NCBI GenBank assembly: GCA_035432885.1
Contig: DAORTX010000001.1
Location: 13,043-77,042, forward strand
Source of the DNA: Usitatibacteraceae bacterium
GTDB taxonomy: Bacteria; Pseudomonadota; Gammaproteobacteria; Burkholderiales; Usitatibacteraceae
DNA length: 64,000 nt
Direction: 5' to 3'
The position numbers and the translations under genes were made by a program. A model generated the notes under the pieces. The model did not search any database. It was given only the letters and a program-made list of their open reading frames with translations, and was not told the DNA's origin. This document shows positions 21,347-42,702 of the stretch, piece after piece (positions within the stretch are counted from its first letter, which is position 1; the number at the start of each line of letters is the position of its first letter).

Positions 21347-21353
21347 GTCCGCG

Positions 21354-22774: not shown

Positions 22775-22857
22775 GGGCCGGCGATGCCGGGGAACCACGC
22801 CGGGGCTCTCCCGGTCACACGAGGCCCGAAGTGCCTGTGGGCTATAATTTTTCCCCC

Positions 22858-24570: not shown

Positions 24571-24572
24571 CG

Positions 24573-25802: not shown

Positions 25803-25825
25803 GGCGCCAGAAAGCCGGAGTCCCC

Positions 25826-26715: not shown

Positions 26716-26732
26716 TCCCCGCCCCCGACACG

Positions 26733-27161: not shown

Positions 27162-27829
27162 ATTCCCGCGGCGCCACGGAAGGCTTCACGCTCCTGGAGA
27201 CGGTGATCGCGCTCACGCTCCTGGCGGTGATGCTCGCCATGCTCTTCGGCGGCCTTCGGGCGGGGGTGCGGGCCTGGGACGCGGGTTCGGGCCGCGGCGA
27301 CCGCGCCGACCAGGTGATGCTCACGGCGGCCTTCGTGAGGAAGGAGCTCACCGCGGCGTTCCCGTGGCGCTTCAAGGACCCGCTCCAGGTGAAGCTCGCA
27401 TTCCGGGGCGAGCGCGAATCGGTGCGGTTCGTCTCCATGCGACCCGCCGAGCTGGGCGGCGGCGGACTTGCCTTCGTGTCCTTCGTCTACGAGCCGGGGC
27501 AGGGCGCCGCCGGGGGAAGGCTCGTCATGCGGCGGGAATTCGCGGCGTCGGGGGCGACCGACTTCTCGGCCGTCGACGCGGCCAAGCCGTTTCCTGTCCT
27601 GGAGGGCGTGAGCGCCGCCCGCTTCTCCTATTTCGGTGCCGAGAACGATGCCGTGGCGCCCGCCTGGAGCGACCGGTGGGAATTCGACCAGCGCACGCCT
27701 TCGCACGTGAAGATCGAGCTTTCGCTCGCCGATACCCGGTTGCCCGACCTGGTCGTCGCGCTTCGCCTGGGCGAGGAGGCCGGCTGCTACGAGTCGTCCT
27801 TCCAGAGAACCTGCGTGCCGAGGCGATGA
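27158..27829 (+). CDS. gspJ: Minor pseudopilin GspJ-like
   Basis: An in-frame TTG at 27158 overlaps the gspI stop and gives the leader LNSRGATE/GFTLLETVIAL. No in-frame ATG precedes the prepilin motif apart from the distant ORF start at 26981, which lies inside gspI. The protein is 223 aa. Confidence 0.6.
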   Translation: MNSRGATEGFTLLETVIALTLLAVMLAMLFGGLRAGVRAWDAGSGRGDRADQVMLTAAFVRKELTAAFPWRFKDPLQVKLAFRGERESVRFVSMRPAELGGGGLAFVSFVYEPGQGAAGGRLVMRREFAASGATDFSAVDAAKPFPVLEGVSAARFSYFGAENDAVAPAWSDRWEFDQRTPSHVKIELSLADTRLPDLVVALRLGEEAGCYESSFQRTCVPRR

Positions 27830-30148: not shown

Positions 30149-30150
30149 CC

Positions 30151-30729
30151 ATGCGGGCCGTCATGGGGTGGGCACCGGACAAGCGCCGCAAGGCCGCGCT
30201 CGCATTCCTCGCCGCAGCCGCGGCGCTGGTCGCGGTGATCGTGGCATTGCCGCTCTGGCTCGCGCACCGCCACTACAACGAGGCGCTGGACGACATGGAT
30301 CGGCGCCTCACGCGCTACGAGAGGCTGGCGGCGGCGCGGCCGACGCTCGAGAGCAAGCTCGAGGCCGTGCGAGCCATGGACAGCCGGAAATACTTCCTGA
30401 AGGCATCCGCCGCTTCGCTCTCCTCGGCGGAAATGCAGGAGCGCGTGCGCCAGTTCGTCGAGGCGGCCGGCGGCCGGATCGTGAGCGTGCAATTGGGGCA
30501 GCCCAAGGACGACGGGCGCTTCCGGCAGGTGTCGGTCACCCTTCAGCTCAACGCCAATACGCAGGCCCTGCGCAAGATACTGCTGGCACTCGAGTCCTCC
30601 GAGCCCTATGTCTTCGTCGATTCGCTCATCGTTCGCGCGCAGGTTCCGCCGGGATACAAGCCGCCACCGGGTTTCGAGCCCGAGATGTTCATCCAGCTCG
30701 ATATTTCCGCGTACGCGATTGCGGGGTGA
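30151..30729 (+). CDS. gspM: GspM-like protein
   Basis: 192 aa with one N-terminal TM (ALAFLAAAAALVAVIVALPLWL). Assigned from position after gspL. Confidence 0.6.
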   Translation: MRAVMGWAPDKRRKAALAFLAAAAALVAVIVALPLWLAHRHYNEALDDMDRRLTRYERLAAARPTLESKLEAVRAMDSRKYFLKASAASLSSAEMQERVRQFVEAAGGRIVSVQLGQPKDDGRFRQVSVTLQLNANTQALRKILLALESSEPYVFVDSLIVRAQVPPGYKPPPGFEPEMFIQLDISAYAIAG

Positions 30730-30734
30730 ACAAG

Positions 30735-31493
30735 ATGCTCGTGAAGAATTCCGACCATTTCTGGCCGCTCGTGTGGGCGGTGACCTCGATCGTCCTGGGT
30801 GGCGTGCTGGTTCTCGAGAGCGAGTTCGGCCGCTCCAGTGCCGGCACGGGGCCGCGGGGCCCCGCCAGGGTCGCCGAAGCGAAGCTCCTGCCGGCCTTCC
30901 GGCTGGCGCCGGAATCCCAGGCGGGCGCGCAGACGCTCGAGCGCCCGCTGTTCGTTCCCGGCCGGCGGCCCGCGCCGGCGGCCTCGAGCGCGGGATCCGG
31001 CGCGATCCGGAAAGGCCAGCTCATCCTCCAGGGCACGACGCTCGTCGGAACACTGTCGATCGCGATGCTGAAGGAGGTCTCCACGGGCGTGGTGCACCGG
31101 GTCGAGAAGGGCGGGGAGATCCTCGGGATGACGCTTGCCGAAATCGCGGCGGAGCAGGTTGTCCTGAAGGCTGGCGGTGATTCGGAGACGTTGGCTCTCG
31201 TGGTGGCCAAGGGTTCCGGAAACGCGGCGGCTGCCGTCGAGCGGGGTCCGTTCGGCTCGTCAGTCGCCCCCACGCCGCCAGGCACCCAGGCGGGCCGCCC
31301 CGCCGCGGCCCCCGGCGCGCCTTCGCCGATCGCCGTCGGCGATTCGACCGGGCCTGTCCCGACGGCAAGGGCGATCCCGTCGGGCGCCATGTCGGTCTCG
31401 CCGCCAGCCGCCACCCCGGGCTCGGCCGCCATGACGCCCGAGGAAATCATCGCGCGGCGTCGCGCCGCGCGCCGCCCGCAACCGCAGAATTGA
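30735..31493 (+). CDS. XpsN/GspC-like T2SS protein (no PDZ recognisable)
   Basis: 252 aa with an N-terminal TM (FWPLVWAVTSIVLGGVLVL) and a Pro/Ala-rich C-terminal half. It sits immediately before the secretin gene, as in xps-type clusters. Confidence 0.5.
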   Translation: MLVKNSDHFWPLVWAVTSIVLGGVLVLESEFGRSSAGTGPRGPARVAEAKLLPAFRLAPESQAGAQTLERPLFVPGRRPAPAASSAGSGAIRKGQLILQGTTLVGTLSIAMLKEVSTGVVHRVEKGGEILGMTLAEIAAEQVVLKAGGDSETLALVVAKGSGNAAAAVERGPFGSSVAPTPPGTQAGRPAAAPGAPSPIAVGDSTGPVPTARAIPSGAMSVSPPAATPGSAAMTPEEIIARRRAARRPQPQN

Positions 31494-31503: not shown

Positions 31504-33714
31504 ATGCCCCCCTTCTCCAGTCCCCTTTACCGTGAAAGCGGAATAGCCTTGATCCGGCGCACCAGAATCCGAGTCCGCACGATCGCCACCGTCCTGGCGC
31601 TTGCGGTCTCGTCGTGCTCGCTGTTGCCCGCGCCGCAACCGGGCGCGCCTGGCACCGAGCGCGAGCGGGCGGAGTTCGGGCCGCGAGCGCCGTCGGTCGC
31701 TCAGGGGACGCCCCAGCCGGCTGTCGTGGCCGAAAAGCCGCGAGTGTTTCCCGGCACGGGCAATTTCCTGAACACGAAGCCGCCCGCCCCGCAGCCGCCC
31801 GCAGGCCCCGAGGAAGCGAGCCTCAACTTCGAGGCGCTGGACGTGCGCTCGGCCGCCAAGGTGATCCTGGGTGACTACCTTCGCGAGTCCTACACAGTGC
31901 ACCCGGGGGTCACGGGCAATGTCACTTTCCGGACGATCAAGCCGATTCCGCGCTCGGCGCTCCTGCCCACGCTCGAGATGCTGCTTCGCCAGAACAACGC
32001 CGCCGTCGTGAAGGAAGACGGCGTCTTCAAGGTGCTTCCCATTTCCGCGGTGCGCGGATCCGTTTCGCCCCAGCTCGGCGCGGCGACGGCGCCCGTGCCG
32101 GCGGGCTATTCCGTCCTCGTGGTTCCGGTGAAGTACGTGGGCGCCCGGGAAATGGCGAAACTTCTCGAGCCTTTCGCCGCCGAGAATACCGTCCGCGTCG
32201 ACGACGTGAGGAACCTGGTAATCCTCGCGGGGAACCAGAAGGAACTGCGCCACCTCCTCGACACGATCGAGCTCTTCGACGTCGACTGGCTTGCCGGCTT
32301 TTCCATCGGCATCTTCCCGGTGAGGAGCGCCGACGTGAAGGCGCTTGTGGCCGACCTGGACAAGGTGTTCGGCGCCACGGCGGCGGGCCCGCTCGCCGGG
32401 CTCGTCCGCGTGATACCGATCGAGCGGCTGAATTCCCTTCTCATCGTGACCACGCAGCCGAAGTACCTGGAGAGCGCGAAGTCGTGGATGGAGCGACTCG
32501 ACCAGATCGGCGCGACCACCGGCGGGTCGCGGCTCTTCGTCTACACGGTGAAGAACGGCAAGGCCGAGAACCTCGCCAATCTCGTGAGCGAATTGTTCAC
32601 CAAGCGAACGACCACGACGATCGCTCCGCCGCAACTCGCGCCTGGTGCGCGACCCGGGCAGATCGCCACGACGCCCCAGACCGGGGCCGCGGGGGCGGGA
32701 ATCCAGCAGCCCGGGGCGACCCAGCCGTCGGCGGCCTCGTTCGCCATTCCGGGCACGGTGGCGAGCGTCTCGAGCGAGGTACGCGTCATCGCGGACAAGG
32801 ACAACAATGCGCTCCTCATCCTCGCCACGCCCACGGACTACGAGATCATCGAATCGGCGCTGGTGAAGCTCGACGTCATTCCGAGGCAGGTGCTGGTGGA
32901 AGTGACGATCGCGGAGGTCACGCTGTCCGACGACCTCAAGTTCGGGGTCGACTGGTTCCTAACCGGGCGCAGCGTGGGGAGCGCGAGCATCACCTCGGGC
33001 TCGCTCAACCTGGGCGGACTACCGCTCACGGCCACCGGAGCGGTGCCGGCGTTCTCGGGTCTGCAGCTCATCAACAGCCTTGGCGGCGACGTGCGCGCCG
33101 TCCTCAACGCGCTGGGCAAGGATGGGCGCCTGCAGGTGCTTGCTACGCCGCAACTCATGGTGCTGGACAACCAGAAAGCCCAGATCAAGGTCGGAGACCG
33201 CATTTCGGTGCAGACGCAGCAGCAGACTGTCTCGGGCACCACGACCGGGCTCATCAACAGCTTCCAGTATATCGAGACGGGCATCCTGCTTTCGGTCACG
33301 CCCCGCATCAATTCCGGCGGGCAGGTGACGCTGGAGGTGAGCCAGGAAGTAAGCGTTCCCGGAGTCCCGTCCGTCGCCGGGGCGAACCCCGACATCAGCC
33401 AGCGCACGGCGACCACTACCGTTGTGGTGGGCTCGGGAGAATCCATCGTTCTCGGCGGGCTGATCCGCGAGGACAATACCCGCTCGACGTCCGGCATCCC
33501 GCTGCTGTCCAAGATCCCGATACTCGGCGCCGCGTTCGGGACGCAGAGCATCGTCAAGCGCCGTACGGAGACCATCCTGCTCATCCGTCCGATCGTCATC
33601 ACGAACGTGCGGCAGGCGGCCGAGGCGACCGAGGAGTTGCGGCGCAAGATGCCTTCGCTCGAGGGATTGCTGCCGGCAATGCCGGCGCAGCCCGCTCCCG
33701 CCGGCGCGCGCTAG
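31504..33714 (+). CDS. gspD: Type II secretion secretin GspD (predicted lipoprotein)
   Basis: 736 aa with the secretin C-domain (GESIVLGGLIREDNTRSTSGIPLLSKIPILGAAFG) and a lipobox LAVSS-C (Cys codon 31615). An alternative TTG start lies near 31549. Confidence 0.9.
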   Translation: MPPFSSPLYRESGIALIRRTRIRVRTIATVLALAVSSCSLLPAPQPGAPGTERERAEFGPRAPSVAQGTPQPAVVAEKPRVFPGTGNFLNTKPPAPQPPAGPEEASLNFEALDVRSAAKVILGDYLRESYTVHPGVTGNVTFRTIKPIPRSALLPTLEMLLRQNNAAVVKEDGVFKVLPISAVRGSVSPQLGAATAPVPAGYSVLVVPVKYVGAREMAKLLEPFAAENTVRVDDVRNLVILAGNQKELRHLLDTIELFDVDWLAGFSIGIFPVRSADVKALVADLDKVFGATAAGPLAGLVRVIPIERLNSLLIVTTQPKYLESAKSWMERLDQIGATTGGSRLFVYTVKNGKAENLANLVSELFTKRTTTTIAPPQLAPGARPGQIATTPQTGAAGAGIQQPGATQPSAASFAIPGTVASVSSEVRVIADKDNNALLILATPTDYEIIESALVKLDVIPRQVLVEVTIAEVTLSDDLKFGVDWFLTGRSVGSASITSGSLNLGGLPLTATGAVPAFSGLQLINSLGGDVRAVLNALGKDGRLQVLATPQLMVLDNQKAQIKVGDRISVQTQQQTVSGTTTGLINSFQYIETGILLSVTPRINSGGQVTLEVSQEVSVPGVPSVAGANPDISQRTATTTVVVGSGESIVLGGLIREDNTRSTSGIPLLSKIPILGAAFGTQSIVKRRTETILLIRPIVITNVRQAAEATEELRRKMPSLEGLLPAMPAQPAPAGAR

Positions 33715-33894: not shown

Positions 33895-34341
33895 TTGGCA
33901 GTGAAAGCACGCATATTTCGCGGTACCCCGGGGATCGCCGGGCGGTATGTTCGGATTCTCGCCGCAGGCCTCGTGGCCGGCATCGCCGGTTGTGCGACGC
34001 AGCCAGTGCCTGTCGCGATGCCGGAGAAGAGCCGCGAGGCGGTCGTCCTGGAGAAGGCCCAGGCTCGCTGGGATGCGTTGCTGAAGAACCGGATGACCGA
34101 GGCGTACCAGTTCTACAGTCCTGCGAGCCGGGTGGTTTTGAGTTACGAGGATTTCATCCGTTCCATGCGGGTGGGCTTCTGGAAGGCGGCACAGGTGGAC
34201 CGGGTGGAGTGCCAGGCCGAGGATGCCTGCGAGGCCATCGTCGCCATCGAGTATCAGCACCGGGGAAGCCGGGTCCGGACGCCGATCCGGGAAACCTGGA
34301 TCCGCGTGGAAGGAAACTGGTGGTATGTGCAGAAAGGTTGA
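33895..34341 (+). CDS. Small lipoprotein of unknown function
   Basis: 148 aa from TTG 33895. GTG 33901, with GGGAG upstream, is more likely the start. It has a lipobox LVAGIAG-C, and I recognise no catalytic motif. Confidence 0.65.
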   Translation: MAVKARIFRGTPGIAGRYVRILAAGLVAGIAGCATQPVPVAMPEKSREAVVLEKAQARWDALLKNRMTEAYQFYSPASRVVLSYEDFIRSMRVGFWKAAQVDRVECQAEDACEAIVAIEYQHRGSRVRTPIRETWIRVEGNWWYVQKG

Positions 34342-34385
34342 GTTTCGGGGGCTGTCACGGCCCCCGTCGGGAAGGCAGGACGTAT

Positions 34386-34414
34386 TTGTAAATCCCGGGT
34401 GACTGGGATAGAAT
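34386..34414 (+). promoter_or_regulatory. Sigma70-type promoter of the 489-aa exported protein gene
   Basis: TTGTAA (34386-91), a 17-nt spacer, then TAGAAT (34409-14). An AAGGAG Shine-Dalgarno lies at 34461-66, 11 nt before the ATG at 34478. Confidence 0.5.
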
Positions 34415-34477
34415 CTCGCCGTTGTATCCTCTAATAAAGTGATCACTTTCATCTTCACCAAAGGAGTAACCCAGAAC

Positions 34478-35947
34478 ATGAACACGTTCAAAAGAAAAGC
34501 GCTGGCCGCCGCCGTCTTCGCGGGGCTGGGCGTTGGTTCGGCTCAGGCCGTCTACCAGGACCCGAACGGCCTTGGCCAGGGTTTGTATTACCCGTACTAC
34601 ACCGTCCAGTCCGTCGACGGCAACGCCTACAACACGTACGTGTCGGTCGTGAACACCACCGCCACCGGCAAGGTCGTCAAGGTCCGCTTCCGCGAAGGCA
34701 AGCAATCGCGCGAAGTCCTTGACTTCAACCTCTACCTGTCGCCCAACGACGTCTGGACCGGCGCGATCATCCCGGCCGACGCCACCGCGACTTCGCCCGG
34801 CCGCCTGGTCACGTCGGACGTCTCCTGCACGAACCCCGCCATCCCCGCCACGGGAATCGACTTCCGGAACTTCCAGTACTCCGGCGCGTTCGACGACGGC
34901 GCCGGCACCGGCCTCGACCGTTCCCGCGAGGGCTACATCGAGATGCTGGAAATGTCGACCGTTATCGGACCGTCCTTGGCCGCGATCACCCACTCGGCCG
35001 CGACTGGCGTCCCGACTTGCACCGGCGTCCGTGGCCCCGGCCCGAACGCGCTCCCGCTTGCTGACCGCGCTGCCCCGACGGGCGGCCTGTCCGGCAACGG
35101 CACGCTCATCAACGTGAACAACGGGTCCGACGCGGGCTACAACGCCGTCGCGCTCGCCAACGTCACGACCACCGACATCTACACGGACGTCGGCTCGGAA
35201 ATTGGTGGCTTCGATCAGGCCGACCCGGTCAGCATCGTGGTCGCGACCTCTCCGGCGGGCACGCATTCCTACACGTCCCAGTGGCTGCTTGGCATCGACG
35301 CCGTGTCCTCGACGATGATGCACCAGAACGTCATCAACGAGTACGTGCTGGACGCGGGCACCAAGTCGAACACCGACTGGGTGATGACCTTCCCGACCAA
35401 GCGCTTCTACGTGACGACGGCCGCCGCGGCGGCGCCGTTCACCAACAAGTTCACGGCGACGGGTTCCTGCGAGTCCTTCGGCTTCCAGTTCTTCAACCGT
35501 GAAGAGCGTGGCGCCACGGCTGCAGGCGGCGACTTCTCGCCGCTGCCCCCGACCCTCGTGGCCGGCCTGTGCTGGGAATCGACTGTCCTGAGCATCCGCT
35601 CCGGCCAGACGCACAACCCGTCGGGCAACACTTCCGGTGTCCTGGGTTCCGCCAACAATCTGTCGGTCAACGTGACTGCCGGCAACCAGAACGGCTGGGC
35701 GAACCTCAGCTTCACGGGCGCCAACTCGCTGGTCGGCCTCGTGTCGCAAGCGGGTTCGAGCACCGTCAACATCGGCACGCTGGTTGGCGTCGCTGGCGCG
35801 CAGACTTACCTTGGCCTGCCGGTCACGGGCTTCATGGCGCGCTCGTTCAACAACGGCACGCTTACCTGCGAGGGCGCTTCCTGCCAGGGCAACTATGGCA
35901 GCCTGTTCACGCACAACTACATCGACAACATCCAGCCGCGGCCGTAA
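34478..35947 (+). CDS. Exported beta-rich protein of unknown family (candidate surface/S-layer or T2SS substrate)
   Basis: 489 aa with a signal peptide ending GSAQA/VY. The composition is rich in Thr/Ser/Asn/Gly/Val with few charged residues, 6 Cys and no TM. The codon choice looks like that of a highly expressed gene. A strong terminator follows. Confidence 0.8.
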   Translation: MNTFKRKALAAAVFAGLGVGSAQAVYQDPNGLGQGLYYPYYTVQSVDGNAYNTYVSVVNTTATGKVVKVRFREGKQSREVLDFNLYLSPNDVWTGAIIPADATATSPGRLVTSDVSCTNPAIPATGIDFRNFQYSGAFDDGAGTGLDRSREGYIEMLEMSTVIGPSLAAITHSAATGVPTCTGVRGPGPNALPLADRAAPTGGLSGNGTLINVNNGSDAGYNAVALANVTTTDIYTDVGSEIGGFDQADPVSIVVATSPAGTHSYTSQWLLGIDAVSSTMMHQNVINEYVLDAGTKSNTDWVMTFPTKRFYVTTAAAAAPFTNKFTATGSCESFGFQFFNREERGATAAGGDFSPLPPTLVAGLCWESTVLSIRSGQTHNPSGNTSGVLGSANNLSVNVTAGNQNGWANLSFTGANSLVGLVSQAGSSTVNIGTLVGVAGAQTYLGLPVTGFMARSFNNGTLTCEGASCQGNYGSLFTHNYIDNIQPRP

Positions 35948-36002
35948 CGCGGTGGCGATGGGAATGGGGACCGGTTTTCGGCCCCCTTCCCTGCAGCGCT
36001 CG

Positions 36003-36031
36003 ACGGGCAGACTTCGGTCTGCCCGTTTTTT
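36003..36031 (+). terminator. Rho-independent terminator
   Basis: A perfect 10-bp stem (acgggcagac / gtctgcccgt) with a ttcg loop, followed by tttttg. It lies 56 nt after the stop at 35947. Confidence 0.8.
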
Positions 36032-36191
36032 GTGATCTGATCCACAGACAGCCGGAATCCGGGAGGGGCATCATTGCGTATATAATTCGCCCTGTAATCA
36101 CTGTTCCCGTGCCGGGAGAGTTGCGGGCAGGCCACCAAGAGCCATGATTGCGGCGCTGCCACCGTCACCCGATGCACTTGAAAGGATTTCC

Positions 36192-37613
36192 ATGCAAAGC
36201 CTGATTCGTTTCCCGAGCTTGCGCCGAATGGGCGCCGCGCTCGCGGCCAGCCTCGGCATTGCCGCCGGGCTCATTCCAGTTCCCTCCGCGATCGCGGCCA
36301 CGGTAAGCCTCACCGGGGGCACCACCGCTTCGTGCACCTACAGCAGCATGGCCGGTAACGCGGCTGGCGACTTCACCTTCACCTGCTCGGGCGGATCGTC
36401 GCCGGGCACCCTTTCGCTCAATCTCGCCGGCACCGCCGCGAGCATCCCGGTCTCCACCGGGTCCACGACCTTCGCTGTCCAGCGATTGAGCGGGACCAGC
36501 GGCGCCATCTCGGGCACCCTGGCGGTCACCTCTGGCACTTGCACCGTGACTCCCGCCACGGTCAATTTTAACGCTGACTCAACCACGCCGAGTTCGACGG
36601 TCACGCTGAGCGCCGGCACGGCGACTGCGGGAACGAGTTGCACCGTCACGCTTACGAGTGCATCGGCGCCGGTCGTCGCGCCGGCCAGCCATACCGTGAG
36701 CGTCGTCAACCCGAACGCGAATGTCTCCTTCCAGTTCACGTCGGCGACGTCGACCGCCTTCTTCAGCGGCACCCCAGTGCCGGTGTCCATCACCATCGCG
36801 CGCACGGGCGGCACGGCCGGCTCCTATAACGTCCCCTTCTATGTCCAGGGCAGCCTGGTAGACGGCTCGGGAAACATCATCGCGGGCGGCGGCACAGTCG
36901 CGCCGCCGCTCTCCTCGGTCACCGGGAACCCCCCCTACGCCTATGGAGTCGCATCCTTCCCGGAGGGAACGGGCTCGCAGACGATCACGTACACGCCACC
37001 GACCGCGGTGCCCGCGGGCGTCACCTCGCCGGCGACCATCAACTACACGCTCCTCGATCCGATGATCGTCGGATCACCGCCGTCGGGCCAAGCCGCCACA
37101 CTCGGCACGACCAAGACAAACGCGATGACCGTCCAGACGCAGGCCGGCTGCGCCACCAGCGCCAACTTTACGGTGCCCTGGACCGGCGGCCAGACTCTCG
37201 TGAGCCAGGTGAAGCGGAACGAGACCGGCGCGGTGTCGATCAATCCGACCCCGGGGCTCATCGGCACCGACGGGTACATGTCTGTGGTGGTCAAAGAGAC
37301 GTCGACCACCGGCGACCAGGCGGACATCCACTACACGCTCTCGGCTTGCCCGGGAGACTTCACACCGGCGATCATTCCGGGCAGCAACTGCGCGCAGCAC
37401 TCGCAGTACACGGGCGGGACGATGCGGTTCTCGATTGGCCCGAAGCCGGTGGGGACGCCTTGGTATCTGTATGTCTGCGAACTGCCGTTGGGCACGACGA
37501 CGGTGTACCTGAATTTCCGGCAGATCAAGAGGCCCACGCCGGTCCCACCGAGCGCGCCGGGCACGCCGAGCTGCCAGTTCACGACCTGCCCGATCTACGT
37601 GCAGTTCAACTGA
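36192..37613 (+). CDS. Exported Thr/Ser/Gly-rich, 10-cysteine protein of unknown family
   Basis: ATG at 36192 with AAAGGA upstream. The signal peptide ends PSAIA/ATVS. The protein is 473 aa, with Ig/Calx-beta-like low-complexity beta segments and 10 Cys. A perfect TATAAT lies at 36081-36086. Confidence 0.75.
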   Translation: MQSLIRFPSLRRMGAALAASLGIAAGLIPVPSAIAATVSLTGGTTASCTYSSMAGNAAGDFTFTCSGGSSPGTLSLNLAGTAASIPVSTGSTTFAVQRLSGTSGAISGTLAVTSGTCTVTPATVNFNADSTTPSSTVTLSAGTATAGTSCTVTLTSASAPVVAPASHTVSVVNPNANVSFQFTSATSTAFFSGTPVPVSITIARTGGTAGSYNVPFYVQGSLVDGSGNIIAGGGTVAPPLSSVTGNPPYAYGVASFPEGTGSQTITYTPPTAVPAGVTSPATINYTLLDPMIVGSPPSGQAATLGTTKTNAMTVQTQAGCATSANFTVPWTGGQTLVSQVKRNETGAVSINPTPGLIGTDGYMSVVVKETSTTGDQADIHYTLSACPGDFTPAIIPGSNCAQHSQYTGGTMRFSIGPKPVGTPWYLYVCELPLGTTTVYLNFRQIKRPTPVPPSAPGTPSCQFTTCPIYVQFN

Positions 37614-37630: not shown

Positions 37631-37668
37631 GGCCCGCATGCGAGAGCGCATGCGGGCCTTTTGTTTGG
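37631..37668 (+). terminator. Rho-independent terminator
   Basis: A perfect 12-bp stem (ggcccgcatgcg / cgcatgcgggcc) with an agag loop, followed by ttttgttt. It lies 17 nt after the stop at 37613. Confidence 0.85.
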
Positions 37669-37684: not shown

Positions 37685-38662
37685 TTGAATTCTCTCTTTG
37701 CCACCCTTGCCGCCGCCGCGGCGATCACCGCGGCGCCTCTGGCCGCCGCCGAAACCCCGCTCGTGAAGAACGGGGACATCGTCGTCACGGAGGCCGACTT
37801 CGAGGCGTACATGGAACGCGTGCCGCTCGAGCTTCGCAACGAGGCGAAGGCGGACGGCGAGCGCAACAACAAGGTCGTCGACCTCATCTTCTCCAACCGC
37901 GTCCTCGCGCAGGAGGCGCGCAAGGCCGGCCTGGACAAGGACCCGGCCCTGGCCCGCCGGATCCAGCAGCACCAGGAGGCCTTCCTCGCGCTGCAGTACG
38001 TGGCCTACCTCGAGCGCATCGCGCCGATTCCCGCCGATCTCGAGGCGCGCGCACTTGAGCTCTACCTCACGAAGCCCGACCGCTACACCGAGCCCGATCG
38101 CGTGGAGTTGCAGCACGTCCTCGTGGGACTCATCGGCCGCACGAGGGAACAGGCGCTGGCCCGCGCGGAGGAAGTCCGCGCCAAGGCGGTAGGCGGCGCG
38201 GACTTCCTGGCGCTGGCCCGGGAGTATTCCGACGATCCCGGCCTCATTCGCAATGGCGGCAGGCTCGGCGCCGTCACTGACAAGGAGATCGACCATCGCA
38301 TCGCCAAGGTCGCCTTCGGGATGAAGTCGGACGGCGAGATATCGGCGCCCATTGTGGCCACCCATGGCGTTCACATCGTGAAGCGCACGGGCTTCAAGCC
38401 CTCCTTCAAGCGCAAGTTCGAGGACGTGAAGGAAGCGATCATCGAGGAAACGCGCGCGCGCCTGCGAAGCGAGGTCTCCCTAAAGCTTCTGGACGCCTGG
38501 CGCCGTAGCCCCGAGACGCAGTGGAACGCAAAGGCCATCGCGGCATTGCGGACCGAGGTGCCGAGGGATGAACTGAAACGCAAGCAGCGCGAGGCGGTGG
38601 AGCGAATGGCGGAAGAAGCGAAGGAAGCCGCCACACCCGCCGCGCCGCCCGCCCGCAACTGA
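37685..38662 (+). CDS. Secreted PpiC/parvulin-type peptidyl-prolyl cis-trans isomerase
   Basis: TTG start at 37685, after AGAAAGGA. The signal peptide is LAAAAAITAAPLAAAE. The parvulin core reads VELQHVLV ... DDPGLIRNGGRLG ... THGVHIVKR. Confidence 0.8.
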   Translation: MNSLFATLAAAAAITAAPLAAAETPLVKNGDIVVTEADFEAYMERVPLELRNEAKADGERNNKVVDLIFSNRVLAQEARKAGLDKDPALARRIQQHQEAFLALQYVAYLERIAPIPADLEARALELYLTKPDRYTEPDRVELQHVLVGLIGRTREQALARAEEVRAKAVGGADFLALAREYSDDPGLIRNGGRLGAVTDKEIDHRIAKVAFGMKSDGEISAPIVATHGVHIVKRTGFKPSFKRKFEDVKEAIIEETRARLRSEVSLKLLDAWRRSPETQWNAKAIAALRTEVPRDELKRKQREAVERMAEEAKEAATPAAPPARN

Positions 38663-38669: not shown

Positions 38670-39455
38670 ATGTCCGCCACCGTCTACACCCATCGGTGGC
38701 TCCTCGCGTCCTTCGTTCGCCGCGAGCTCGGCACGCGCTACGCGGGCTCCGTGAGTGGCGCGGCGTGGGCTCTGCTGCATCCGCTGGCGCTCCTCGCGGT
38801 CTACGCGTTCATCTTCACGACGGTTTTCCGCGTCCAGTTGCCCCTGGGCGCGGGAGGCGCCAGCTACACCGCTTTCGCGGCCGTGATGCTATGGCCGTGG
38901 ATCATGTTCTCCGAGGGCGTGACGCGGGGCATGGAATCGATCCAGTCCAACGCCGGGCTCATCCGCAAGGTGGCCTTTCCCCACGCACTGCTCGTCTACG
39001 CCGCCGTCGTGTCTTCGTTCGCGGTCCATGCCCTGGGCTTCGTAGCAGTCCTCGTGGTGCTCGCGGTGCTGGGCGAGCCGGTCCACCTCGTGCGCGCGCC
39101 CCTCACCCTGGCCTTTCTCGTGCCGCTGGCGATCGCGGCGGTCGGCGTGGCTGCCGTCCTCGCGGCGCTCCAGACGCTGCTCAAGGACGTGGGGCAGGTG
39201 GTTTCCATCGGCCTCACCGTGCTCTTCTACGGCACGCCCATCCTCTATCCCCTGGCCTTCGTCCCCGATTCGATGCGCCCGTGGATGGCGGCGAACCCGC
39301 TCACCGGCATGGCGGAGCGCTTGCGCGAGGTGCTGTTGACGGGTGGCGGCCTCGTGCCCGGCGATCTCTGGCTCTGGGTCATCGCGCTGGCCGTGGCATG
39401 GGCGGGCTTGCGGTTCTTCGAGCGCCTTTCCCCGCATTTCGAGGATTTCCTGTGA
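38670..39455 (+). CDS. wzm: ABC-2 type polysaccharide export permease (Wzm/TagG-like)
   Basis: 261 aa with six predicted TM segments. The N-terminus RRELGTRYAGSVSGAAWALLHP is typical of Wzm. Confidence 0.8.
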   Translation: MSATVYTHRWLLASFVRRELGTRYAGSVSGAAWALLHPLALLAVYAFIFTTVFRVQLPLGAGGASYTAFAAVMLWPWIMFSEGVTRGMESIQSNAGLIRKVAFPHALLVYAAVVSSFAVHALGFVAVLVVLAVLGEPVHLVRAPLTLAFLVPLAIAAVGVAAVLAALQTLLKDVGQVVSIGLTVLFYGTPILYPLAFVPDSMRPWMAANPLTGMAERLREVLLTGGGLVPGDLWLWVIALAVAWAGLRFFERLSPHFEDFL

Positions 39456-40708
39456 GCCGCCCGTTCTCGCGGGTGACACCCGTTGCCGCGGATGCGGATG
39501 CGAGCGTCCTCGTGGCCCTCGAGGGCGTCGGCAAGGACTACCCCAAGGTCAGCGCAGGAGGAGACCGCCTACGCACGCTGTGGGGTCTGCTTGCGGGCCA
39601 TGCCGACATCCCGCGATTTCGCGCGCTGCAGGGCGTGACGGCCTCGGTTCATCGCGGCGAATCCCTGGGACTCGTGGGAGAGAACGGCGCCGGAAAGTCC
39701 ACGCTTCTCAAGATCATCGCGGGCGTGGTGAAGCCGTCGGCCGGCTCGGTACGGGTGGCCGGGCGGATCGGCGCGCTCCTCGAGCTTGGGAGCGGTTTCC
39801 ACCCCGAGTACACGGGGCGCGAGAACATCTACCTTGCCGCGGCGCTCATGGGCCTTTCGCGCCGGGAAACGCGGGAAAAGGTCGACGCCATCATCGCCTT
39901 TGCCGACATCGGCCAGCATATCGAAGAACCCATCAAGCATTACTCCTCCGGCATGGCGGTCCGGCTGGGGTTCGCCGTGGCCACCGCGCTCACGCCGGAC
40001 ATCCTCATCACCGACGAAGTCCTCGCCGTGGGCGACGAATCGTTCCAGAAGAAATGCATTCGCTGGCTCGAGCGCTACCTCGGCGACGGGGGCACCCTGC
40101 TGCTGTGCTCGCACAGCATGTACCACGTGCAGACGCTCTGCTCGCGCGCGATGTGGCTCCACGAGGGCGCGGTCCGCCTGGACGGCGACAGTTTCGACGT
40201 GACGCGCGAGTACCTCACCTACCACGAGGAGAAAGGCCGCGGAGAAAAGCCGGCGCCTCGAGCCGCCGAAGGGCTGGTTCCGCTCATCCGGGCCATGCGC
40301 GTCGAGCGGGCGGACGGCACCGCCCTGGAGGTGCTTTCAGCCGGCGACGACATGGTGCTCCAGGGCCTCGCCTGGAGCCCGGACGGCCGCGCTCCCGTTC
40401 TGCTCTTCGGCATCGTCCGCGCCGATGGCACGCCGGTCTACGGCGCGCATTCCAATGACGACGGCTTCGAGCCGCTCCGGGTGGACGAGCACCACTTCGC
40501 CTTCTCCGCGCATTTTCCCGCGCCGGGCCTGCTGCCGGGAAAGTACGCGGTGCGCGTCCATGCGCTCGACCCCGAGGGGCTTCGCCTCTTCGACACGCAG
40601 GAGCGCCAGATCGTGGTCACGGGCCGCACGCGCGACTATGGGCTGGTGCGGCTTGCGCATTCCTGGAAGGCCGGCACCCTTCGGCCGGGGGCGGCGGGAA
40701 CACCCTGA
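39452..40708 (+). CDS. wzt: Polysaccharide export ABC ATPase (Wzt-like) with C-terminal extension
   Basis: GTG at 39452 overlaps the wzm stop. Walker A GENGAGKST, signature YSSGMAVRL, Walker B ILITDE. About 150 extra C-terminal residues could form a Wzt_C-like glycan-binding domain. Confidence 0.8.
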   Translation: MSRPFSRVTPVAADADASVLVALEGVGKDYPKVSAGGDRLRTLWGLLAGHADIPRFRALQGVTASVHRGESLGLVGENGAGKSTLLKIIAGVVKPSAGSVRVAGRIGALLELGSGFHPEYTGRENIYLAAALMGLSRRETREKVDAIIAFADIGQHIEEPIKHYSSGMAVRLGFAVATALTPDILITDEVLAVGDESFQKKCIRWLERYLGDGGTLLLCSHSMYHVQTLCSRAMWLHEGAVRLDGDSFDVTREYLTYHEEKGRGEKPAPRAAEGLVPLIRAMRVERADGTALEVLSAGDDMVLQGLAWSPDGRAPVLLFGIVRADGTPVYGAHSNDDGFEPLRVDEHHFAFSAHFPAPGLLPGKYAVRVHALDPEGLRLFDTQERQIVVTGRTRDYGLVRLAHSWKAGTLRPGAAGTP

Positions 40709-42702
40709 TGGCAAGCCCGCAGCAAGACGACATGCGCGAGGCTTGCGCGAGGATCCTCGACCTCGCCCGGCGCGGCCTCGATGCGCAGGCGCTCGAGGAA
40801 AGCCGCGCGCTGGCGGAGCGCTTTGGCGACCGGCCGGAGCCGCGCCTGCAGCTGGGCGTGCTCCTGCTCCAGTCGGGCGATCGAGCGGGGGCGGAAACCG
40901 TGCTTCGCGAATGCCTGGCACTGGCGCCGGGGCTCACGCCCGCGCTGACACTGCTCGGCGATCTGCTGTTCGACAGGCGAGACCTCGCGGGTGCGCTCGA
41001 CTGCTTCACCACGCTGGCACGCACGCGCCCGGACGACGGCCGTCTCTGGAACAACATCGCCATCACGCAACTTGCCCTCGGGCGGTTCGAGGATTCGGAA
41101 GCGGCCGCGCGGCGCGCCAGGACGCTCGAGCCGCGAAGCGCCATCGCCTGGCTGAACCTGGGCCGTGCCTGCGCGGCACGGGAAAAGCGCGAGGATGCGC
41201 TGGCTGCTCTGGGCGAGTGCCTGAGGCTCGATCCGTCGAACGCCGATGCGAACGACCTGGCGGGCAGGGTGCAGGCGCAGGCCGGCATGTATGGCCGCGC
41301 AGCGAAGTCGTTTCGAAGGGCGCTCGACTCGGGCGGGGGTGCGATGACGGCGAGCCGGCTGGGCGACGCCCTCATGCAATCGGGTGACGCGGCAGGCGCC
41401 ATCGCCGCCTATCGGGACGCCGAGGCACGCGATCCCGCCCACGCCGCCGGGAACGGGAGCCGTGCGCTCTTTGCCCTCCACGCCGACGATCGCGTGAGCC
41501 AGGCGGAAATCTTTGCGGCGCACCGCGACTGGGCGAATCGGCATGCGACGGTCCGCTCGGGCGTTGTCCATCCCAATCCCCGAGAGCCCGGCAAGCCGCT
41601 GCGCGTGGGCTACGTATCGCCGCGGCTCAACCGGTCGTCGGCAGCCTTCGTCCTGATGCCCGTCCTCGAGCACCACGAGCCGGGCGAGGTGGCGTACTTC
41701 TGCTACGCCGGCCAGGACACCGATGACGACGTGACGCGGCGAATCCGGGCTCGCGCCGCGGGCTGGCGCGACACGCGGGAGCTCGATGACGATGCGCTCG
41801 CGCAGGCGATCCGGGACGACGGGATCGACATCGTCGTCGATCTGGCCGGGCACACGCCCGGAAACCGGCTTCCGGCGCTCGCGCGCCGGCCGGCGCCGAT
41901 CGTCCTCTCCTGGCTGGACTACTTCGACACGACGGGCTGCGATTGCATCGATGCCGTCGTCACGGATTCGTTGCATTCGCCACCGGGAGATGCGCAGCCC
42001 TTCTCGGAGCGGCTGCTTCGCCTGGCGCCCTTGCGTCTTTGCTACGCGGCGCCGGACTATGCGCCTGAGCCCGTCCCGCCGCCCTCGGCAAGCGGCGCAG
42101 CCATCGTCTTCGGCGCTTTCCACCGCATGGCGAAGATCGGTCCGCGCGTGGTGGGCGCCTGGACGGAACTCCTGTCGCGCCTCCCCGAGGCGCGGCTGGT
42201 GATCAAGAACGACGCGCTGAACGGCGAAGGAGAGCGCGCCTGGCAAAGCGAGCGGCTTGCCGCGGCGGGACTGCCGATGTCGCGCGTCGAGCTGCGCGGC
42301 GCCTCGGACCATCCGGACATGCTGGGGCAATATGGAGGCGTCGACATTGCCCTCGACGCCTTCCCCTACAACGGCGGCATCACCACCCTCGAGGCCCTGT
42401 GGATGGGTCGCCCGGTCGTCGCGGTCCGGGGCGAGACGCTCATCTCGCGCCAGTCGGCCGCGATCCTCCAGTCGATCGGCCTCGGGGAACTGGTCGCCCG
42501 CGATTGGCGCGAGATGATCGCGCTCGCGGCCGCACTGGCCGCGGATCCCGGTCGGCTGGCCGCCCTCGCCGCGAGCATTCGCGGGCGCATGGCCGCATCG
42601 CCGGTTTGCGACACGGCGGCATTCACGCGTTCGCTGGAAGCGGCGTACCGCTCGTCCTGGCGCGCGTACTGCGCAGGCGAGCCCATCGGAGATTCCCATT
42701 GA
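40708..42702 (+). CDS. TPR-repeat protein fused to GT41 (SPINDLY/OGT-like) glycosyltransferase
   Basis: 664 aa with N-terminal TPRs and a C-terminal GT41 signature (DIALDAFPYNGGITTLEALWMGRPVV ... SRQSAAILQSIGL). The ATG overlaps the wzt stop by 1 nt. Confidence 0.8.
   Translation: MASPQQDDMREACARILDLARRGLDAQALEESRALAERFGDRPEPRLQLGVLLLQSGDRAGAETVLRECLALAPGLTPALTLLGDLLFDRRDLAGALDCFTTLARTRPDDGRLWNNIAITQLALGRFEDSEAAARRARTLEPRSAIAWLNLGRACAAREKREDALAALGECLRLDPSNADANDLAGRVQAQAGMYGRAAKSFRRALDSGGGAMTASRLGDALMQSGDAAGAIAAYRDAEARDPAHAAGNGSRALFALHADDRVSQAEIFAAHRDWANRHATVRSGVVHPNPREPGKPLRVGYVSPRLNRSSAAFVLMPVLEHHEPGEVAYFCYAGQDTDDDVTRRIRARAAGWRDTRELDDDALAQAIRDDGIDIVVDLAGHTPGNRLPALARRPAPIVLSWLDYFDTTGCDCIDAVVTDSLHSPPGDAQPFSERLLRLAPLRLCYAAPDYAPEPVPPPSASGAAIVFGAFHRMAKIGPRVVGAWTELLSRLPEARLVIKNDALNGEGERAWQSERLAAAGLPMSRVELRGASDHPDMLGQYGGVDIALDAFPYNGGITTLEALWMGRPVVAVRGETLISRQSAAILQSIGLGELVARDWREMIALAAALAADPGRLAALAASIRGRMAASPVCDTAAFTRSLEAAYRSSWRAYCAGEPIGDSH

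What the first reader, a model, noticed from the sequence alone, without database searches (positions are those of the whole stretch)
33895..37613. Three consecutive exported proteins of unrecognised families directly after the secretin gene: candidate dedicated T2SS cargo or S-layer-like module
The three genes encode a 148-aa lipoprotein, a 489-aa beta-rich protein and a 473-aa Thr/Ser-rich 10-Cys protein. Each appears to have its own expression signals. They lie between a complete T2SS and an operon encoding a secreted foldase plus a glycan export and glycosylation set. I cannot assign either large protein to a known family from memory; neither has enzyme motifs, a TM segment, an OMP-type C-terminus or a PEP-CTERM signal. 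There is precedent for this layout. Aeromonas S-layer subunits need dedicated T2SS homologues encoded next to the S-layer gene (spsD, apsE). S-layers of Aeromonas and Caulobacter are tethered through a specific O-polysaccharide. All analogous parts are adjacent here. This is a hypothesis, not a demonstrated function.
Basis: inference. Interest (0 to 1): 0.7.

Follow-up and report, generated by a model that had tools for sequence, protein, structure and literature searches.

The report
NpdA-type S-layer gene island

Summary
All three genes are real and match the description. None matches any Pfam or NCBIfam model.

- **P2 (34478-35947)** is not an orphan. It is a full-length member of the NpdA S-layer family (hhalign 100%, E 2.6e-45 against the Paracidovorax citrulli group). 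NpdA was shown by deletion, proteomics and cryo-EM to form the S-layer in P. citrulli (PMC10765051).
- **Layout.** The order T2SS – small lipoprotein – npdA – PpiC isomerase – wzm/wzt is the same in the verified P. citrulli locus. It recurs in 35 of 44 partnered species-level loci.
- **P1 (33901-34341)** is the unnamed lipoprotein of those loci. It shows faint NTF2-like similarity and no pilotin-family match.
- **P3 (36192-37613)** belongs to a fast-evolving secreted family. It has tandem Calx-beta-like sandwiches and a Cys-containing C-terminal domain. The family fills the slot after npdA in about 50 of 86 loci and is absent in P. citrulli.

**Best reading:** a dedicated T2SS exports an NpdA lattice subunit. 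A periplasmic foldase assists. An ABC-exported O-polysaccharide probably tethers the layer, as in Aeromonas salmonicida.

**Verdict:** a new member of a known kind. The conserved lipoprotein, foldase, glycan exporter and variable P3 family are not discussed in the NpdA papers I could read. Those parts are the modestly new element.

The parts
18824..22774 (+). rmlB, rmlA, rmlC, rmlD: dTDP-L-rhamnose synthesis genes at the upstream edge of the island. ORF limits are given; the true starts of rmlB and rmlD lie further in.
   Evidence: Pfam GDP_Man_Dehyd/Epimerase 8e-91, NTP_transferase 8e-78, dTDP_sugar_isom 4e-68; RmlD_sub_bind 1e-100.
22594..24570 (+). gspE, the T2SS ATPase, with an N-terminal MshEN-type c-di-GMP-binding motif. 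ORF limits are given; the orthologue is 570 aa, so the true start is near 22858.
   Evidence: TIGR02533 673 bits (cut-off 630); NF053729 c-di-GMP motif 43.5 bits (cut-off 38); Pfam T2SSE 2e-148, MshEN 4e-14.
24570..31493 (+). gspF, G, H, I, J, K, L, M, N: inner-membrane platform and pseudopilins. Approximate positions: gspG about 25830-26260, gspH 26260-26715, gspI 26733-27161, gspK about 27780-28767, gspL 28715-30148, gspM 30145-30729, gspN 30729-31493.
   Evidence: Pfam T2SSG 4e-34, GspH 8e-7, N_methyl, T2SSK_1st 1e-19, PilN 5e-8, T2SSM_b 5e-24; XpsN weak, 2.6e-7. gspF and gspJ are inferred from the orthologous genes in L005 and L001 and were not scanned in the window itself.
31504..33714 (+). 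gspD secretin. Its N-terminus carries a lipobox (..LALAVSSC|S), so it is probably a self-piloting liposecretin.
   Evidence: TIGR02517 436.8 bits (cut-off 351); Pfam Secretin, Secretin_N, N0; lipobox here and in most related loci.
33901..34341 (+). P1: a small outer-membrane-type lipoprotein (mature form about 13.5 kDa, Ala at +2) with faint NTF2/SnoaL-like similarity. It is the conserved partner encoded directly upstream of npdA.
   Evidence: Lipobox IAGC. A homologue lies 0.4-0.85 kb upstream of npdA in 64 of 74 species-level loci. hhalign against the 139-aa ORF before npdA in P. citrulli: 99.6%, E 5e-24. Weak DUF4864/SnoaL hits in 21 of 63 members.
34386..34414 (+). Sigma-70-like promoter match (TTGTAA-17-TAGAAT) in the AT-richer spacer before npdA. 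An AAGGAG ribosome-binding site follows.
   Evidence: This is a consensus match only: 1 site found against 0.6 expected.
34478..35947 (+). P2 = npdA homologue, the predicted S-layer lattice subunit. 489 aa with a 24-aa signal peptide; the mature form is 48.3 kDa with pI 4.77.
   Evidence: BLASTP against verified P. citrulli NpdA: 28% over 465 aa, E 3e-26. 57% identity over the full length to Usitatibacter palustris WP_171164597, which the NpdA paper lists as an orthologue. Profile-profile comparison with the Paracidovorax/Acidovorax group: 100%, E 2.6e-45, end to end. AF2 pLDDT 85, pTM 0.87.
36002..36037 (+). Intrinsic terminator after npdA: 11-bp stem plus T run.
36192..37613 (+). P3: a secreted, Thr/Ser-rich, 10-Cys protein made of tandem Calx-beta/Ig-like sandwiches plus a conserved Cys-containing C-terminal domain. 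It belongs to a fast-evolving family that occupies the slot between npdA and the isomerase gene.
   Evidence: Only 29 database homologues. AF2 pLDDT 79. Foldseek top hits are the Calx-beta CBD1/CBD2 domains of NCX1/CALX, E about 1e-9. An iterated HMM unites 46 of 50 slot ORFs, with shared C-terminal motifs.
37631..37668 (+). Intrinsic terminator after P3: 12-bp stem with 10 GC pairs, plus T run.
37685..38662 (+). Periplasmic PpiC/parvulin-type peptidyl-prolyl isomerase (SurA/PrsA-like) with a cleavable signal peptide. TTG start.
   Evidence: Pfam Rotamase 9e-19. 29% identity, E 3e-34 to the isomerase directly after npdA in P. citrulli. Present downstream of npdA in 52 of 61 loci.
38670..40708 (+). 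wzm (38670-39455) and wzt (39452-40708): an ABC-2 polysaccharide exporter. Wzt has a C-terminal extension that weakly matches Wzt_C.
   Evidence: ABC2_membrane 5e-12; ABC_tran 5e-21 and Wzt_C 1.3e-4, below cut-off; NCBIfam galactan/teichoic exporter relatives. Wzm in 46 of 57 loci and Wzt in 43 of 57.
40708..44903 (+). Two paralogous TPR + GT41 glycosyltransferases (40708-42702 and 42699-44903). This is the variable, probably serotype-specific part of the island.
   Evidence: Glyco_transf_41 3e-42 and 1e-29, plus TPR repeats. 27% identical to each other. Present in 27 of 57 loci; absent in P. citrulli, which has methyltransferase and GT2 genes instead.

Best explanation
The region is the core of an NpdA-type S-layer island spanning about 18.8-44.9 kb.

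Shown by homology:
- P2 is a full-length member of the NpdA family.
- Members of that family form the S-layer of Delftia sp. Cs1-4 and Paracidovorax citrulli.
- The gene order around P2 is the same as in the verified P. citrulli locus.

Inferred mechanism:
- Pre-NpdA crosses the inner membrane by Sec and loses a 24-residue signal peptide.
- It folds in the periplasm with help from the co-encoded parvulin-type isomerase/chaperone, which may also hold it back from premature self-assembly.
- It is pushed through the GspD channel by the adjacent T2SS. The secretin appears to be a self-piloting liposecretin. The ATPase carries a c-di-GMP-binding MshEN motif.
- NpdA then crystallises on the outer membrane.
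- The rmlBACD genes, Wzm/Wzt and the glycosyltransferases make and export a lipid-linked O-polysaccharide. This most likely provides the attachment surface for the lattice, as in Aeromonas and Caulobacter.

Accessory proteins:
- P1 is an outer-membrane lipoprotein that travels with npdA in nearly every locus. It most likely acts at the membrane-lattice interface or in release of NpdA from the secretin.
- P3 is a strain-variable, secreted protein built of Calx-beta-like sandwich domains in tandem. It most likely associates with or decorates the layer.

Confidence by step:
- P2 is an NpdA-family protein: about 0.95.
- P2 forms an S-layer in this organism: about 0.8.
- Export by this T2SS: about 0.75.
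- O-polysaccharide tether: about 0.5.
- The stated roles of P1 and P3: about 0.3 each.
For: Family membership:
- BLASTP to verified P. citrulli NpdA gives E 3e-26 with shared motifs along the whole length.
- Identity is 57% to the listed Usitatibacter palustris orthologue.
- hhalign of the window subfamily against the Paracidovorax/Acidovorax subfamily gives probability 100%, E 2.6e-45, covering residues 5-491 versus 2-534.

Experimental basis for the family:
- PMC10765051 (deletion mutant, mass spectrometry, cryo-EM; 15 of 16 further cultures with npdA showed an S-layer).
- PMC3110197.

Synteny:
- The verified P. citrulli locus L086 reads gspF..D, 139-aa ORF, npdA, PpiC isomerase, Wzm, Wzt.
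- P1 is homologous to that 139-aa ORF. The isomerases are homologous too.
- Across species-level loci, the partners occur as follows: GspD 55 of 63, P1 64 of 74, isomerase 52 of 61, Wzm 46 of 57, Wzt 43 of 57.
- Of 49 loci with both flanks present, 44 have partners and 35 have the full set.

Protein properties typical of S-layer subunits:
- Mature P2 is 48 kDa, pI 4.8, rich in Gly/Thr/Ala/Ser.
- The gene has its own promoter-like site, a strong ribosome-binding site and a strong terminator.

Other support:
- GspE and GspD score above the curated equivalog cut-offs.
- In A. salmonicida the same layout (rml, wzm, S-layer T2SS + vapA, wzt, glycosyltransferases) has been characterised genetically (PMC4483657).
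Against: - No experiment exists for this uncultured organism.
- P2 is only 28% identical to the verified protein, so lattice formation is extrapolated across a deep split in the family.
- T2SS dependence has not been tested for any NpdA; PMC10765051 lists it as future work.
- Nothing in the sequence shows that NpdA binds the O-polysaccharide. The NpdA papers do not address anchoring.
- Five of 49 loci carry npdA paralogues with no partner genes, so NpdA-like proteins can exist away from the module.
- The glycosyltransferase content varies. GT41 occurs in 27 of 57 loci and is absent in P. citrulli.
- The AF2 model of P2 has no significant match in the PDB, so the fold gives no independent functional support.
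Confidence: 0.75

Rival explanations
1. P1 is simply the pilotin of the T2SS secretin. On this view it is a small outer-membrane lipoprotein that guides GspD to the outer membrane and has no direct relation to NpdA.
For: P1 is encoded immediately after gspD. It is a roughly 13-kDa lipoprotein with a non-Asp residue at +2. That position and size are typical of the PulS/OutS/AspS pilotins (established knowledge of T2SS). P1 is absent from the five npdA paralogue loci that lack a T2SS.
Against: GspD here and in most related loci carries its own lipobox. HxcQ of Pseudomonas aeruginosa is a liposecretin that needs no pilotin (from my own knowledge of the T2SS literature). No member of the P1 alignment matched a pilotin family in Pfam. 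The recurrent weak hits are to NTF2-like families such as DUF4864 and SnoaL_2. P1 is kept both where GspD has a lipobox and in P. citrulli, where it has none.
Confidence: 0.3
2. The wzm/wzt, rml and glycosyltransferase genes are the organism's ordinary LPS O-antigen cluster. The S-layer genes merely sit beside it or were inserted into it. The glycan has no specific role in holding the layer.
For: In A. salmonicida the S-layer genes look like an insertion between wzm and wzt of the O-antigen cluster (PMC4483657). Glycosyltransferase content differs between loci, as expected for serotype genes.
Against: The adjacency holds in 43-46 of 57 species-level loci across Beta- and Gammaproteobacteria. 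It also holds in the distant P. citrulli locus. Neutral adjacency would be unlikely to survive that much divergence.
Confidence: 0.25
3. The two TPR-GT41 enzymes glycosylate a protein, either NpdA or the Thr/Ser-rich P3, in the cytoplasm before Sec export. The product would be a glycoprotein layer rather than a glycan-tethered one.
For: GT41 is a family of protein glycosyltransferases that includes the OGT and HMW1C types. HMW1C modifies its adhesin substrate in the cytoplasm before export (established knowledge). GT41b gives a faint match to the NGT model NF049992 (E 8e-10, 37.9 bits). P3 is 28% Thr plus Ser.
Against: The NGT match is far below its cut-off of 1000 bits. GT41 genes occur in only 27 of 57 loci and are missing in P. 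citrulli. Their presence does not correlate with presence of the P3-family gene (Fisher p = 0.28). They sit directly behind wzm/wzt, the usual place for O-polysaccharide transferases.
Confidence: 0.15
4. P2 is an NpdA homologue that has lost lattice formation. It would act instead as a soluble T2SS-secreted protein or adhesin, for example a matrix protein.
For: P2 is only 28% identical to the verified protein. The family is very large and includes partner-less paralogues and fused double-length forms. One of 16 npdA-carrying cultures showed no S-layer (PMC10765051 abstract).
Against: The alignment runs end to end with the family motifs conserved. The full partner gene set is kept. Usitatibacter palustris, whose protein is 57% identical to P2, is listed among the NpdA orthologues in that study. 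P2 has the acidic pI and size typical of S-layer subunits.
Confidence: 0.1

Closest known systems
NpdA S-layer protein and its gsp1 T2SS cluster (Delftia sp. Cs1-4; Paracidovorax citrulli AAC00-1, WP_011797163 / Aave_4148)
   Same: The proteins are homologous over their full length. The gene order is the same: T2SS, small lipoprotein-like ORF, npdA, PpiC isomerase, wzm, wzt. Both have a signal peptide of about 25 residues, a mature size near 50 kDa and no database domain.
   Different: P2 is only 28% identical and about 45 residues shorter than the P. citrulli protein. This locus adds a P3-family gene between npdA and the isomerase, and it uses TPR-GT41 transferases. P. citrulli has no slot gene and uses methyltransferase and GT2 genes. 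The secretin here has a lipobox; the P. citrulli secretin does not.
Aeromonas salmonicida A-layer locus (vapA with the sps/aps S-layer T2SS inside the wb O-antigen cluster) and A. hydrophila AhsA/spsD
   Same: The logic matches: rml genes, wzm/wzt ABC-2 exporter and glycosyltransferases flank a dedicated T2SS and a roughly 50-kDa S-layer subunit gene (PMC4483657).
   Different: I did not test whether VapA and NpdA are related in sequence, because no VapA sequence was at hand. The NpdA authors treat NpdA as a separate family. The excerpts I read of the Aeromonas paper list only unnamed hypothetical ORFs beside the sps genes; I did not check that locus for a PpiC isomerase, a P1-type lipoprotein or a P3-type gene.
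Slr4 of Pseudoalteromonas tunicata (S-layer protein next to a T2SS cluster)
   Same: It is an S-layer subunit gene linked to a T2SS cluster, and it is widely distributed across proteobacterial classes (PMC7821379, as summarised in PMC10765051).
   Different: It is described as a different family. The gene lies upstream of the T2SS, and the carriers are mostly marine. I made no sequence comparison.
Calx-beta domains (CBD1/CBD2 of Na+/Ca2+ exchangers; also common in bacterial surface proteins)
   Same: The repeated modules of P3 superpose on CBD1/CBD2. Foldseek gives E about 1e-9, and single-domain TM-scores relative to the target are about 0.75. P3 also carries the Calx-beta-like motif V.RTGGT.G.
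   Different: No Pfam Calx-beta hit reaches significance. Calcium-binding residues were not examined. The C-terminal Cys-containing domain has no identified relative.

Membership tests
NpdA S-layer protein family | Significant full-length sequence homology to an experimentally verified NpdA (P. citrulli WP_011797163) | tested here: met
   BLASTP E 3e-26 over 465 aa. Profile-profile probability 100%, E 2.6e-45, end to end.
NpdA S-layer protein family | Sec signal peptide of about 25 residues, mature protein near 50 kDa, no other database domain | tested here: met
   The 24-residue signal peptide ends AQA|V. The mature form is 48.3 kDa. No Pfam or NCBIfam hit.
NpdA S-layer protein family | Gene lies directly downstream of a gsp (T2SS) cluster | tested here: met
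   gspE..gspD occupy 22594-33714, then P1, then npdA. The order is the same in L086, the P. citrulli locus.
NpdA S-layer protein family | The protein forms a paracrystalline surface lattice that is lost on gene deletion | not testable with these tools
   This needs cryo-ET or negative-stain EM and a mutant. It has been shown only for Delftia sp. Cs1-4 and P. citrulli (PMC3110197, PMC10765051).
Type II secretion system (Gsp/Xps type) | GspE ATPase and GspD secretin scoring above curated equivalog cut-offs, plus pseudopilins G-K and platform proteins F, L, M | tested here: met
   TIGR02533 673 bits against a cut-off of 630; TIGR02517 437 against 351. T2SSG, GspH, T2SSK, PilN and T2SSM_b all hit. 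gspF and gspJ are inferred from orthologous loci.
Dedicated S-layer T2SS (Aeromonas Sps/Aps type) | Secretion of the S-layer subunit requires this T2SS and not the general one | not testable with these tools
   A 64-kb window cannot show whether a second T2SS exists. No mutant data exist for any NpdA (PMC10765051 states this as future work).
T2SS pilotin (PulS/OutS or AspS families), considered for P1 | Sequence membership in a known pilotin family | tested here: not met
   No pilotin family appeared among the Pfam hits of 63 P1-family members. The recurrent weak hits were NTF2-like: DUF4864 in 21 of 63, also SnoaL_2 and DUF4440.
ABC-transporter-dependent O-polysaccharide pathway (Wzm/Wzt) | ABC-2 permease plus an ATPase with a C-terminal carbohydrate-binding extension, next to nucleotide-sugar and glycosyltransferase genes | tested here: met
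   ABC2_membrane and ABC_tran hit. The Wzt_C match is weak, E 1.3e-4 and below cut-off. The orthologues in L001 and L086 carry Wzt_C. rmlBACD and two GT41 genes are adjacent.
Calx-beta domain proteins, considered for P3 | Calx-beta fold and a sequence-profile match | tested here: inconclusive
   The fold matches the CBD1/CBD2 domains (E about 1e-9), but there is no significant Pfam Calx-beta hit. The overall model has pTM of only 0.49.
PEP-CTERM/exosortase system, considered because of the PpiC isomerase and TPR proteins | A PEP-CTERM sorting signal on the exported proteins | tested here: not met
   The C-termini of P2 (..NIQPRP) and P3 (..YVQFN) lack a PEP motif followed by a TM segment and basic tail. 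PrsT matches come from TPR repeats only and fall far below cut-off. I did not search the window for an exosortase gene as such; none of the genes I scanned with Pfam between 18.8 and 49.3 kb is one.

The most novel reading that the evidence does not exclude
NpdA S-layers may depend on a conserved biogenesis and anchoring set that the NpdA papers I read do not discuss. On this reading:

- The NTF2-like lipoprotein P1 is the outer-membrane anchor or release factor for the lattice.
- The parvulin is a dedicated anti-aggregation chaperone.
- The P3 family (tandem Calx-beta-like sandwiches plus a Cys-containing C-terminal domain) is a second, hypervariable surface component. It might decorate the lattice or form the outer sheet of the 'double S-layers' seen in some carriers. 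Pressure from phages or predators would drive its rapid divergence.
- The c-di-GMP-binding GspE would make S-layer export responsive to signalling.
Probability: 0.3. Interest if true: 0.55.

Novelty: new member of a known kind. Interest (0 to 1): 0.35.

Why it matters
The finding assigns a probable S-layer to a widespread group of uncultured soil and wastewater Betaproteobacteria, the Usitatibacteraceae, Casimicrobiaceae and their relatives. No S-layer protein is annotated for them.

The NpdA family is far larger than the 111 species reported in 2023. Here it has at least 564 species-level genome hits and 3,325 matches among 50%-identity representatives. It still has no Pfam or NCBIfam model, so it is labelled 'hypothetical' almost everywhere.

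The comparative analysis also defines a conserved set of partner genes: a lipoprotein, a parvulin isomerase, Wzm/Wzt and a variable protein with Calx-beta-like domains. These give concrete candidates for how NpdA layers are folded, exported and attached. The NpdA papers leave these questions open.

Tried and rejected
- **Profile and sequence databases.** Pfam, NCBIfam and PDB sequence searches with the three proteins found nothing significant. A profile of 63 P1 homologues against PDB sequences also found nothing. NCBIfam has no model even for the verified P. citrulli NpdA.
- **Fold searches with the P2 model.** Foldseek against the PDB gave no hit at E <= 0.001, only fragmentary galectin-like and jelly-roll-like sandwiches with TM below 0.2 relative to the query. 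Against BFVD viral structures it gave only picornavirus polyproteins at TM about 0.16, which I judged meaningless. So the fold adds no functional evidence, and no solved NpdA structure turned up.
- **PEP-CTERM/exosortase system.** I considered this because of the PpiC isomerase and TPR proteins. I rejected it because there is no PEP-CTERM tail, and the PrsT matches are TPR-only.
- **Outer-membrane beta-barrel or enzyme for P2.** Rejected given the homology to NpdA.
- **GT41 genes tracking the P3-family gene.** This would hint at P3 glycosylation. They do not correlate (Fisher p = 0.28).
- **Wrong reading frames.** My first guesses for wzt, gspF and gspK were in the wrong frame. wzt was redone in the correct frame. 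gspF was not rescanned in the window.
- **Literature.** Searches for a solved NpdA structure, or for any description of the downstream genes, found nothing in the held library.

Full report
**Observation**

The three + strand genes are present as described.

- P1 runs from 33895 (TTG) or 33901 (GTG) to 34341. It has a typical lipobox, LVAGIAGC, followed by Ala.
- P2 runs 34478-35947 (489 aa). Its signal peptide ends GSAQA|VYQDP.
- P3 runs 36192-37613 (473 aa). Its signal peptide ends SAIA|ATVSL.

Mature P2 is 48.3 kDa with pI 4.77 and is rich in Gly, Thr, Ala and Ser. Mature P3 is 17% Thr and 11% Ser with 10 Cys.

A sigma-70-like site lies before P2. Strong intrinsic terminators follow P2 and P3.

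None of the three matches Pfam-A, NCBIfam or any PDB sequence.

The neighbourhood is as claimed:

- Upstream: rmlBACD, then a complete T2SS. GspE and GspD score above the curated equivalog cut-offs.
- Downstream: a PpiC-type isomerase, Wzm/Wzt and two TPR-GT41 transferases.
- Beyond about 45 kb, and before 18.8 kb, the genes are unrelated housekeeping genes.

**What P2 is**

P2 has thousands of full-length homologues in metagenomes, all unnamed. The nearest named sources are Burkholderiales and Usitatibacter MAGs. An exhaustive HMMER search found 3,325 matches among 50%-identity representatives at E <= 0.001.

A literature search on Usitatibacter plus type II secretion led to PMC10765051. That paper shows by deletion, mass spectrometry and cryo-EM that NpdA (WP_011797163) forms the S-layer of Paracidovorax citrulli. 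It lists orthologues in 62 beta- and 49 gammaproteobacterial species. It notes that npdA lies directly downstream of 12 gsp genes. NpdA was first described in Delftia sp. Cs1-4 (PMC3110197).

The sequence evidence that P2 belongs to this family:

- Against the P. citrulli sequence printed in the paper's supplement, P2 aligns over 465 residues at 28% identity, E 3e-26. The shared motifs include VKVRFR..LDF..SP.DVWT, REGY.E, TDW..PT.R, F.REE, FSP, C.E.SVLS and NGW.
- P2 is 57% identical over its full length to the listed Usitatibacter palustris orthologue.
- A profile of the window's subfamily against a profile of the Paracidovorax/Acidovorax subfamily gives probability 100%, E 2.6e-45, end to end.

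P2 is therefore an NpdA-family protein.

The AlphaFold2 model is confident (pLDDT 85, pTM 0.87) and almost all beta. It has no significant match in the PDB. No solved NpdA-like structure turned up, and the fold adds no independent evidence.

**Conserved context**

Three related loci with precomputed annotation showed the same order as the window:

gspE-F-G-H-I-J-K-L-M-N-D, small protein, P2 homologue, variable protein, PpiC isomerase, TPR-GT41 genes, Wzm/Wzt.

A scan of species-level genomes returned at least 564 species with a relative. The closest is a wastewater Betaproteobacteria MAG at 88% identity (L067).

I ran tblastn with the window's proteins against the 80 best loci. The partners occur at fixed offsets from npdA:

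| Partner | Loci with partner / loci with enough flank | Typical offset from npdA |
|---|---|---|
| GspD | 55 / 63 | start about 2.9 kb upstream of the npdA start |
| P1 | 64 / 74 | start about 0.5 kb upstream of the npdA start |
| PpiC isomerase | 52 / 61 | starts 0.1-2 kb after the npdA end in most loci |
| Wzm | 46 / 57 | downstream |
| Wzt | 43 / 57 | downstream |
| GT41 | 27 / 57 | downstream |

Of 49 loci with both flanks available, 44 have partners and 35 have the full set. Five are partner-less second copies.

The experimentally verified P. citrulli locus has the same order: gsp genes, a 139-aa hypothetical ORF, npdA, PpiC isomerase, Wzm, Wzt with Wzt_C, then methyltransferases and GT2. 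Its 139-aa ORF is homologous to P1 (hhalign 99.6%, E 5e-24). Its isomerase is homologous to the window's (E 3e-34).

The window therefore carries an orthologous island, not just a homologous protein.

**P1**

The P1 family consists of lipoproteins of about 125-135 aa. A lipobox was found in 64 of 71 members. The family has an invariant Cys pair and conserved Trp residues.

Twenty-one of 63 members give weak hits to DUF4864. Others hit SnoaL_2, DUF4440 and further NTF2-like families. None hits a pilotin family.

The window's GspD has its own lipobox, as do most relatives. The P. citrulli GspD does not. P1 is kept in both situations. I therefore rate 'pilotin' (0.3) no higher than 'NpdA-linked outer-membrane partner'. 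Neither is shown.

**P3**

P3 has only 29 database homologues. It diverges much faster than its neighbours. Against L067 it is 59% identical, compared with 88% for NpdA and 94% for Wzm.

The alignment shows repeated modules with a V.RTGGT.G motif and a conserved Cys-containing C-terminal domain. Some relatives carry extra modules.

The AF2 model (pLDDT 79, pTM 0.49) is a string of beta sandwiches. The best PDB matches are the Calx-beta domains CBD1/CBD2, at E about 1e-9.

An HMM iterated over the largest ORF between npdA and the isomerase gene brought 46 of 50 such ORFs into one family. Its members share C-terminal motifs: S..PCDF or CPGDF, TYY.N, and C...C. Because the search space was small and the sequences are compositionally biased, I treat the family as well supported through those motifs rather than the E-values alone.

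The slot is empty in about 13 loci and in P. citrulli. P3 is thus an optional, rapidly evolving, secreted companion of NpdA. Its role is unknown. A surface-exposed, layer-associated protein is the most economical guess.

**Mechanism**

The best-supported model runs as follows:

1. NpdA is exported across the inner membrane by Sec.
2. It folds in the periplasm, assisted by the parvulin.
3. The adjacent T2SS secretes it.
4. It self-assembles on the outer membrane.
5. A Wzm/Wzt-exported polysaccharide, possibly rhamnose-containing given the adjacent rml genes, probably provides the attachment.

The closest characterised parallel for step 5 is Aeromonas salmonicida. There the S-layer T2SS and vapA lie between wzm and wzt of the O-antigen cluster, next to the rml genes (PMC4483657).

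Only family membership and synteny are shown here. Export route, foldase role and tether are inferred. PMC10765051 states that the T2SS dependence of NpdA is untested. It does not mention LPS, O-antigen or anchoring.

GT41 enzymes could instead glycosylate a protein. However, they are present in only about half the loci, and their presence does not correlate with the P3-family gene.

**Comparison and novelty**

The kind of system is known: an S-layer subunit gene coupled to a dedicated T2SS and an O-polysaccharide cluster. The protein family is published.

What the NpdA papers I could read do not discuss:

- the near-universal P1 lipoprotein, shown only as an unnamed 'X' ORF in their Figure S5A;
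- the parvulin isomerase;
- the Wzm/Wzt link;
- the variable P3 family;
- the much larger size of the NpdA family.

Neither Pfam nor NCBIfam has a model for NpdA, P1 or P3.

**Score**

Interest is 0.35. This is a solid and useful annotation with some new comparative detail, but a specialist in S-layers or T2SS would not be surprised.

Noticed in passing
window 22594-24570 (gspE): The T2SS ATPase has an N-terminal MshEN-type c-di-GMP-binding motif. NCBIfam NF053729 scores 43.5 bits against a cut-off of 38, and Pfam MshEN gives 4e-14. This suggests that export by this S-layer-linked T2SS could be gated by c-di-GMP.
   Followed up: no
window 31504-33714 (gspD N-terminus); loci L001-L085: The secretin has a lipobox (..LALAVSSC|S), which would make it a liposecretin like HxcQ. 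A crude pattern search found a lipobox-like motif in the N-terminal region of GspD in 56 of 63 related loci. The P. citrulli GspD has none.
   Followed up: partly
L013, L040, L052, L066, L079; L080; proteins P0160-P0176: Some genomes carry a second npdA paralogue with no T2SS, P1 or isomerase nearby. One example is L040, from the same MAG as L067, the window's closest relative. Some copies are tandem or fused into proteins of about 960-1,200 aa with two NpdA units. Candidatus Nitrotoga fabula has two tandem copies.
   Followed up: partly
window 40708-44903: The two adjacent TPR + GT41 glycosyltransferases are only 27% identical to each other. GT41 is best known for protein glycosylation, so its place directly behind wzm/wzt in an apparent O-polysaccharide cluster is unusual. 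GT41 genes occur in 27 of 57 related loci.
   Followed up: partly
P0146, P0147: Two proteins of 715-769 aa carry a Pfam PPC (pre-peptidase C-terminal) domain; the one with a source name is from a Gemmatimonadales MAG. They share a segment covering about 25% of P3 at about 52% identity. So one P3 module also occurs in other secreted multidomain proteins outside the Proteobacteria.
   Followed up: no
window 45414-49268: A 1,284-aa DUF3683 / FAD-oxidase / 4Fe-4S / CCG-domain oxidoreductase lies immediately after the island. It is also the next gene in the related loci L005 and L006. It probably marks the conserved chromosomal border and is not part of the module.
   Followed up: no
window 677-6496: A 1,939-aa hybrid CheA-type kinase with several Hpt domains, a CheW domain and a receiver domain. 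It resembles ChpA of type IV pilus chemosensory systems. It lies about 12 kb upstream of the island.
   Followed up: no
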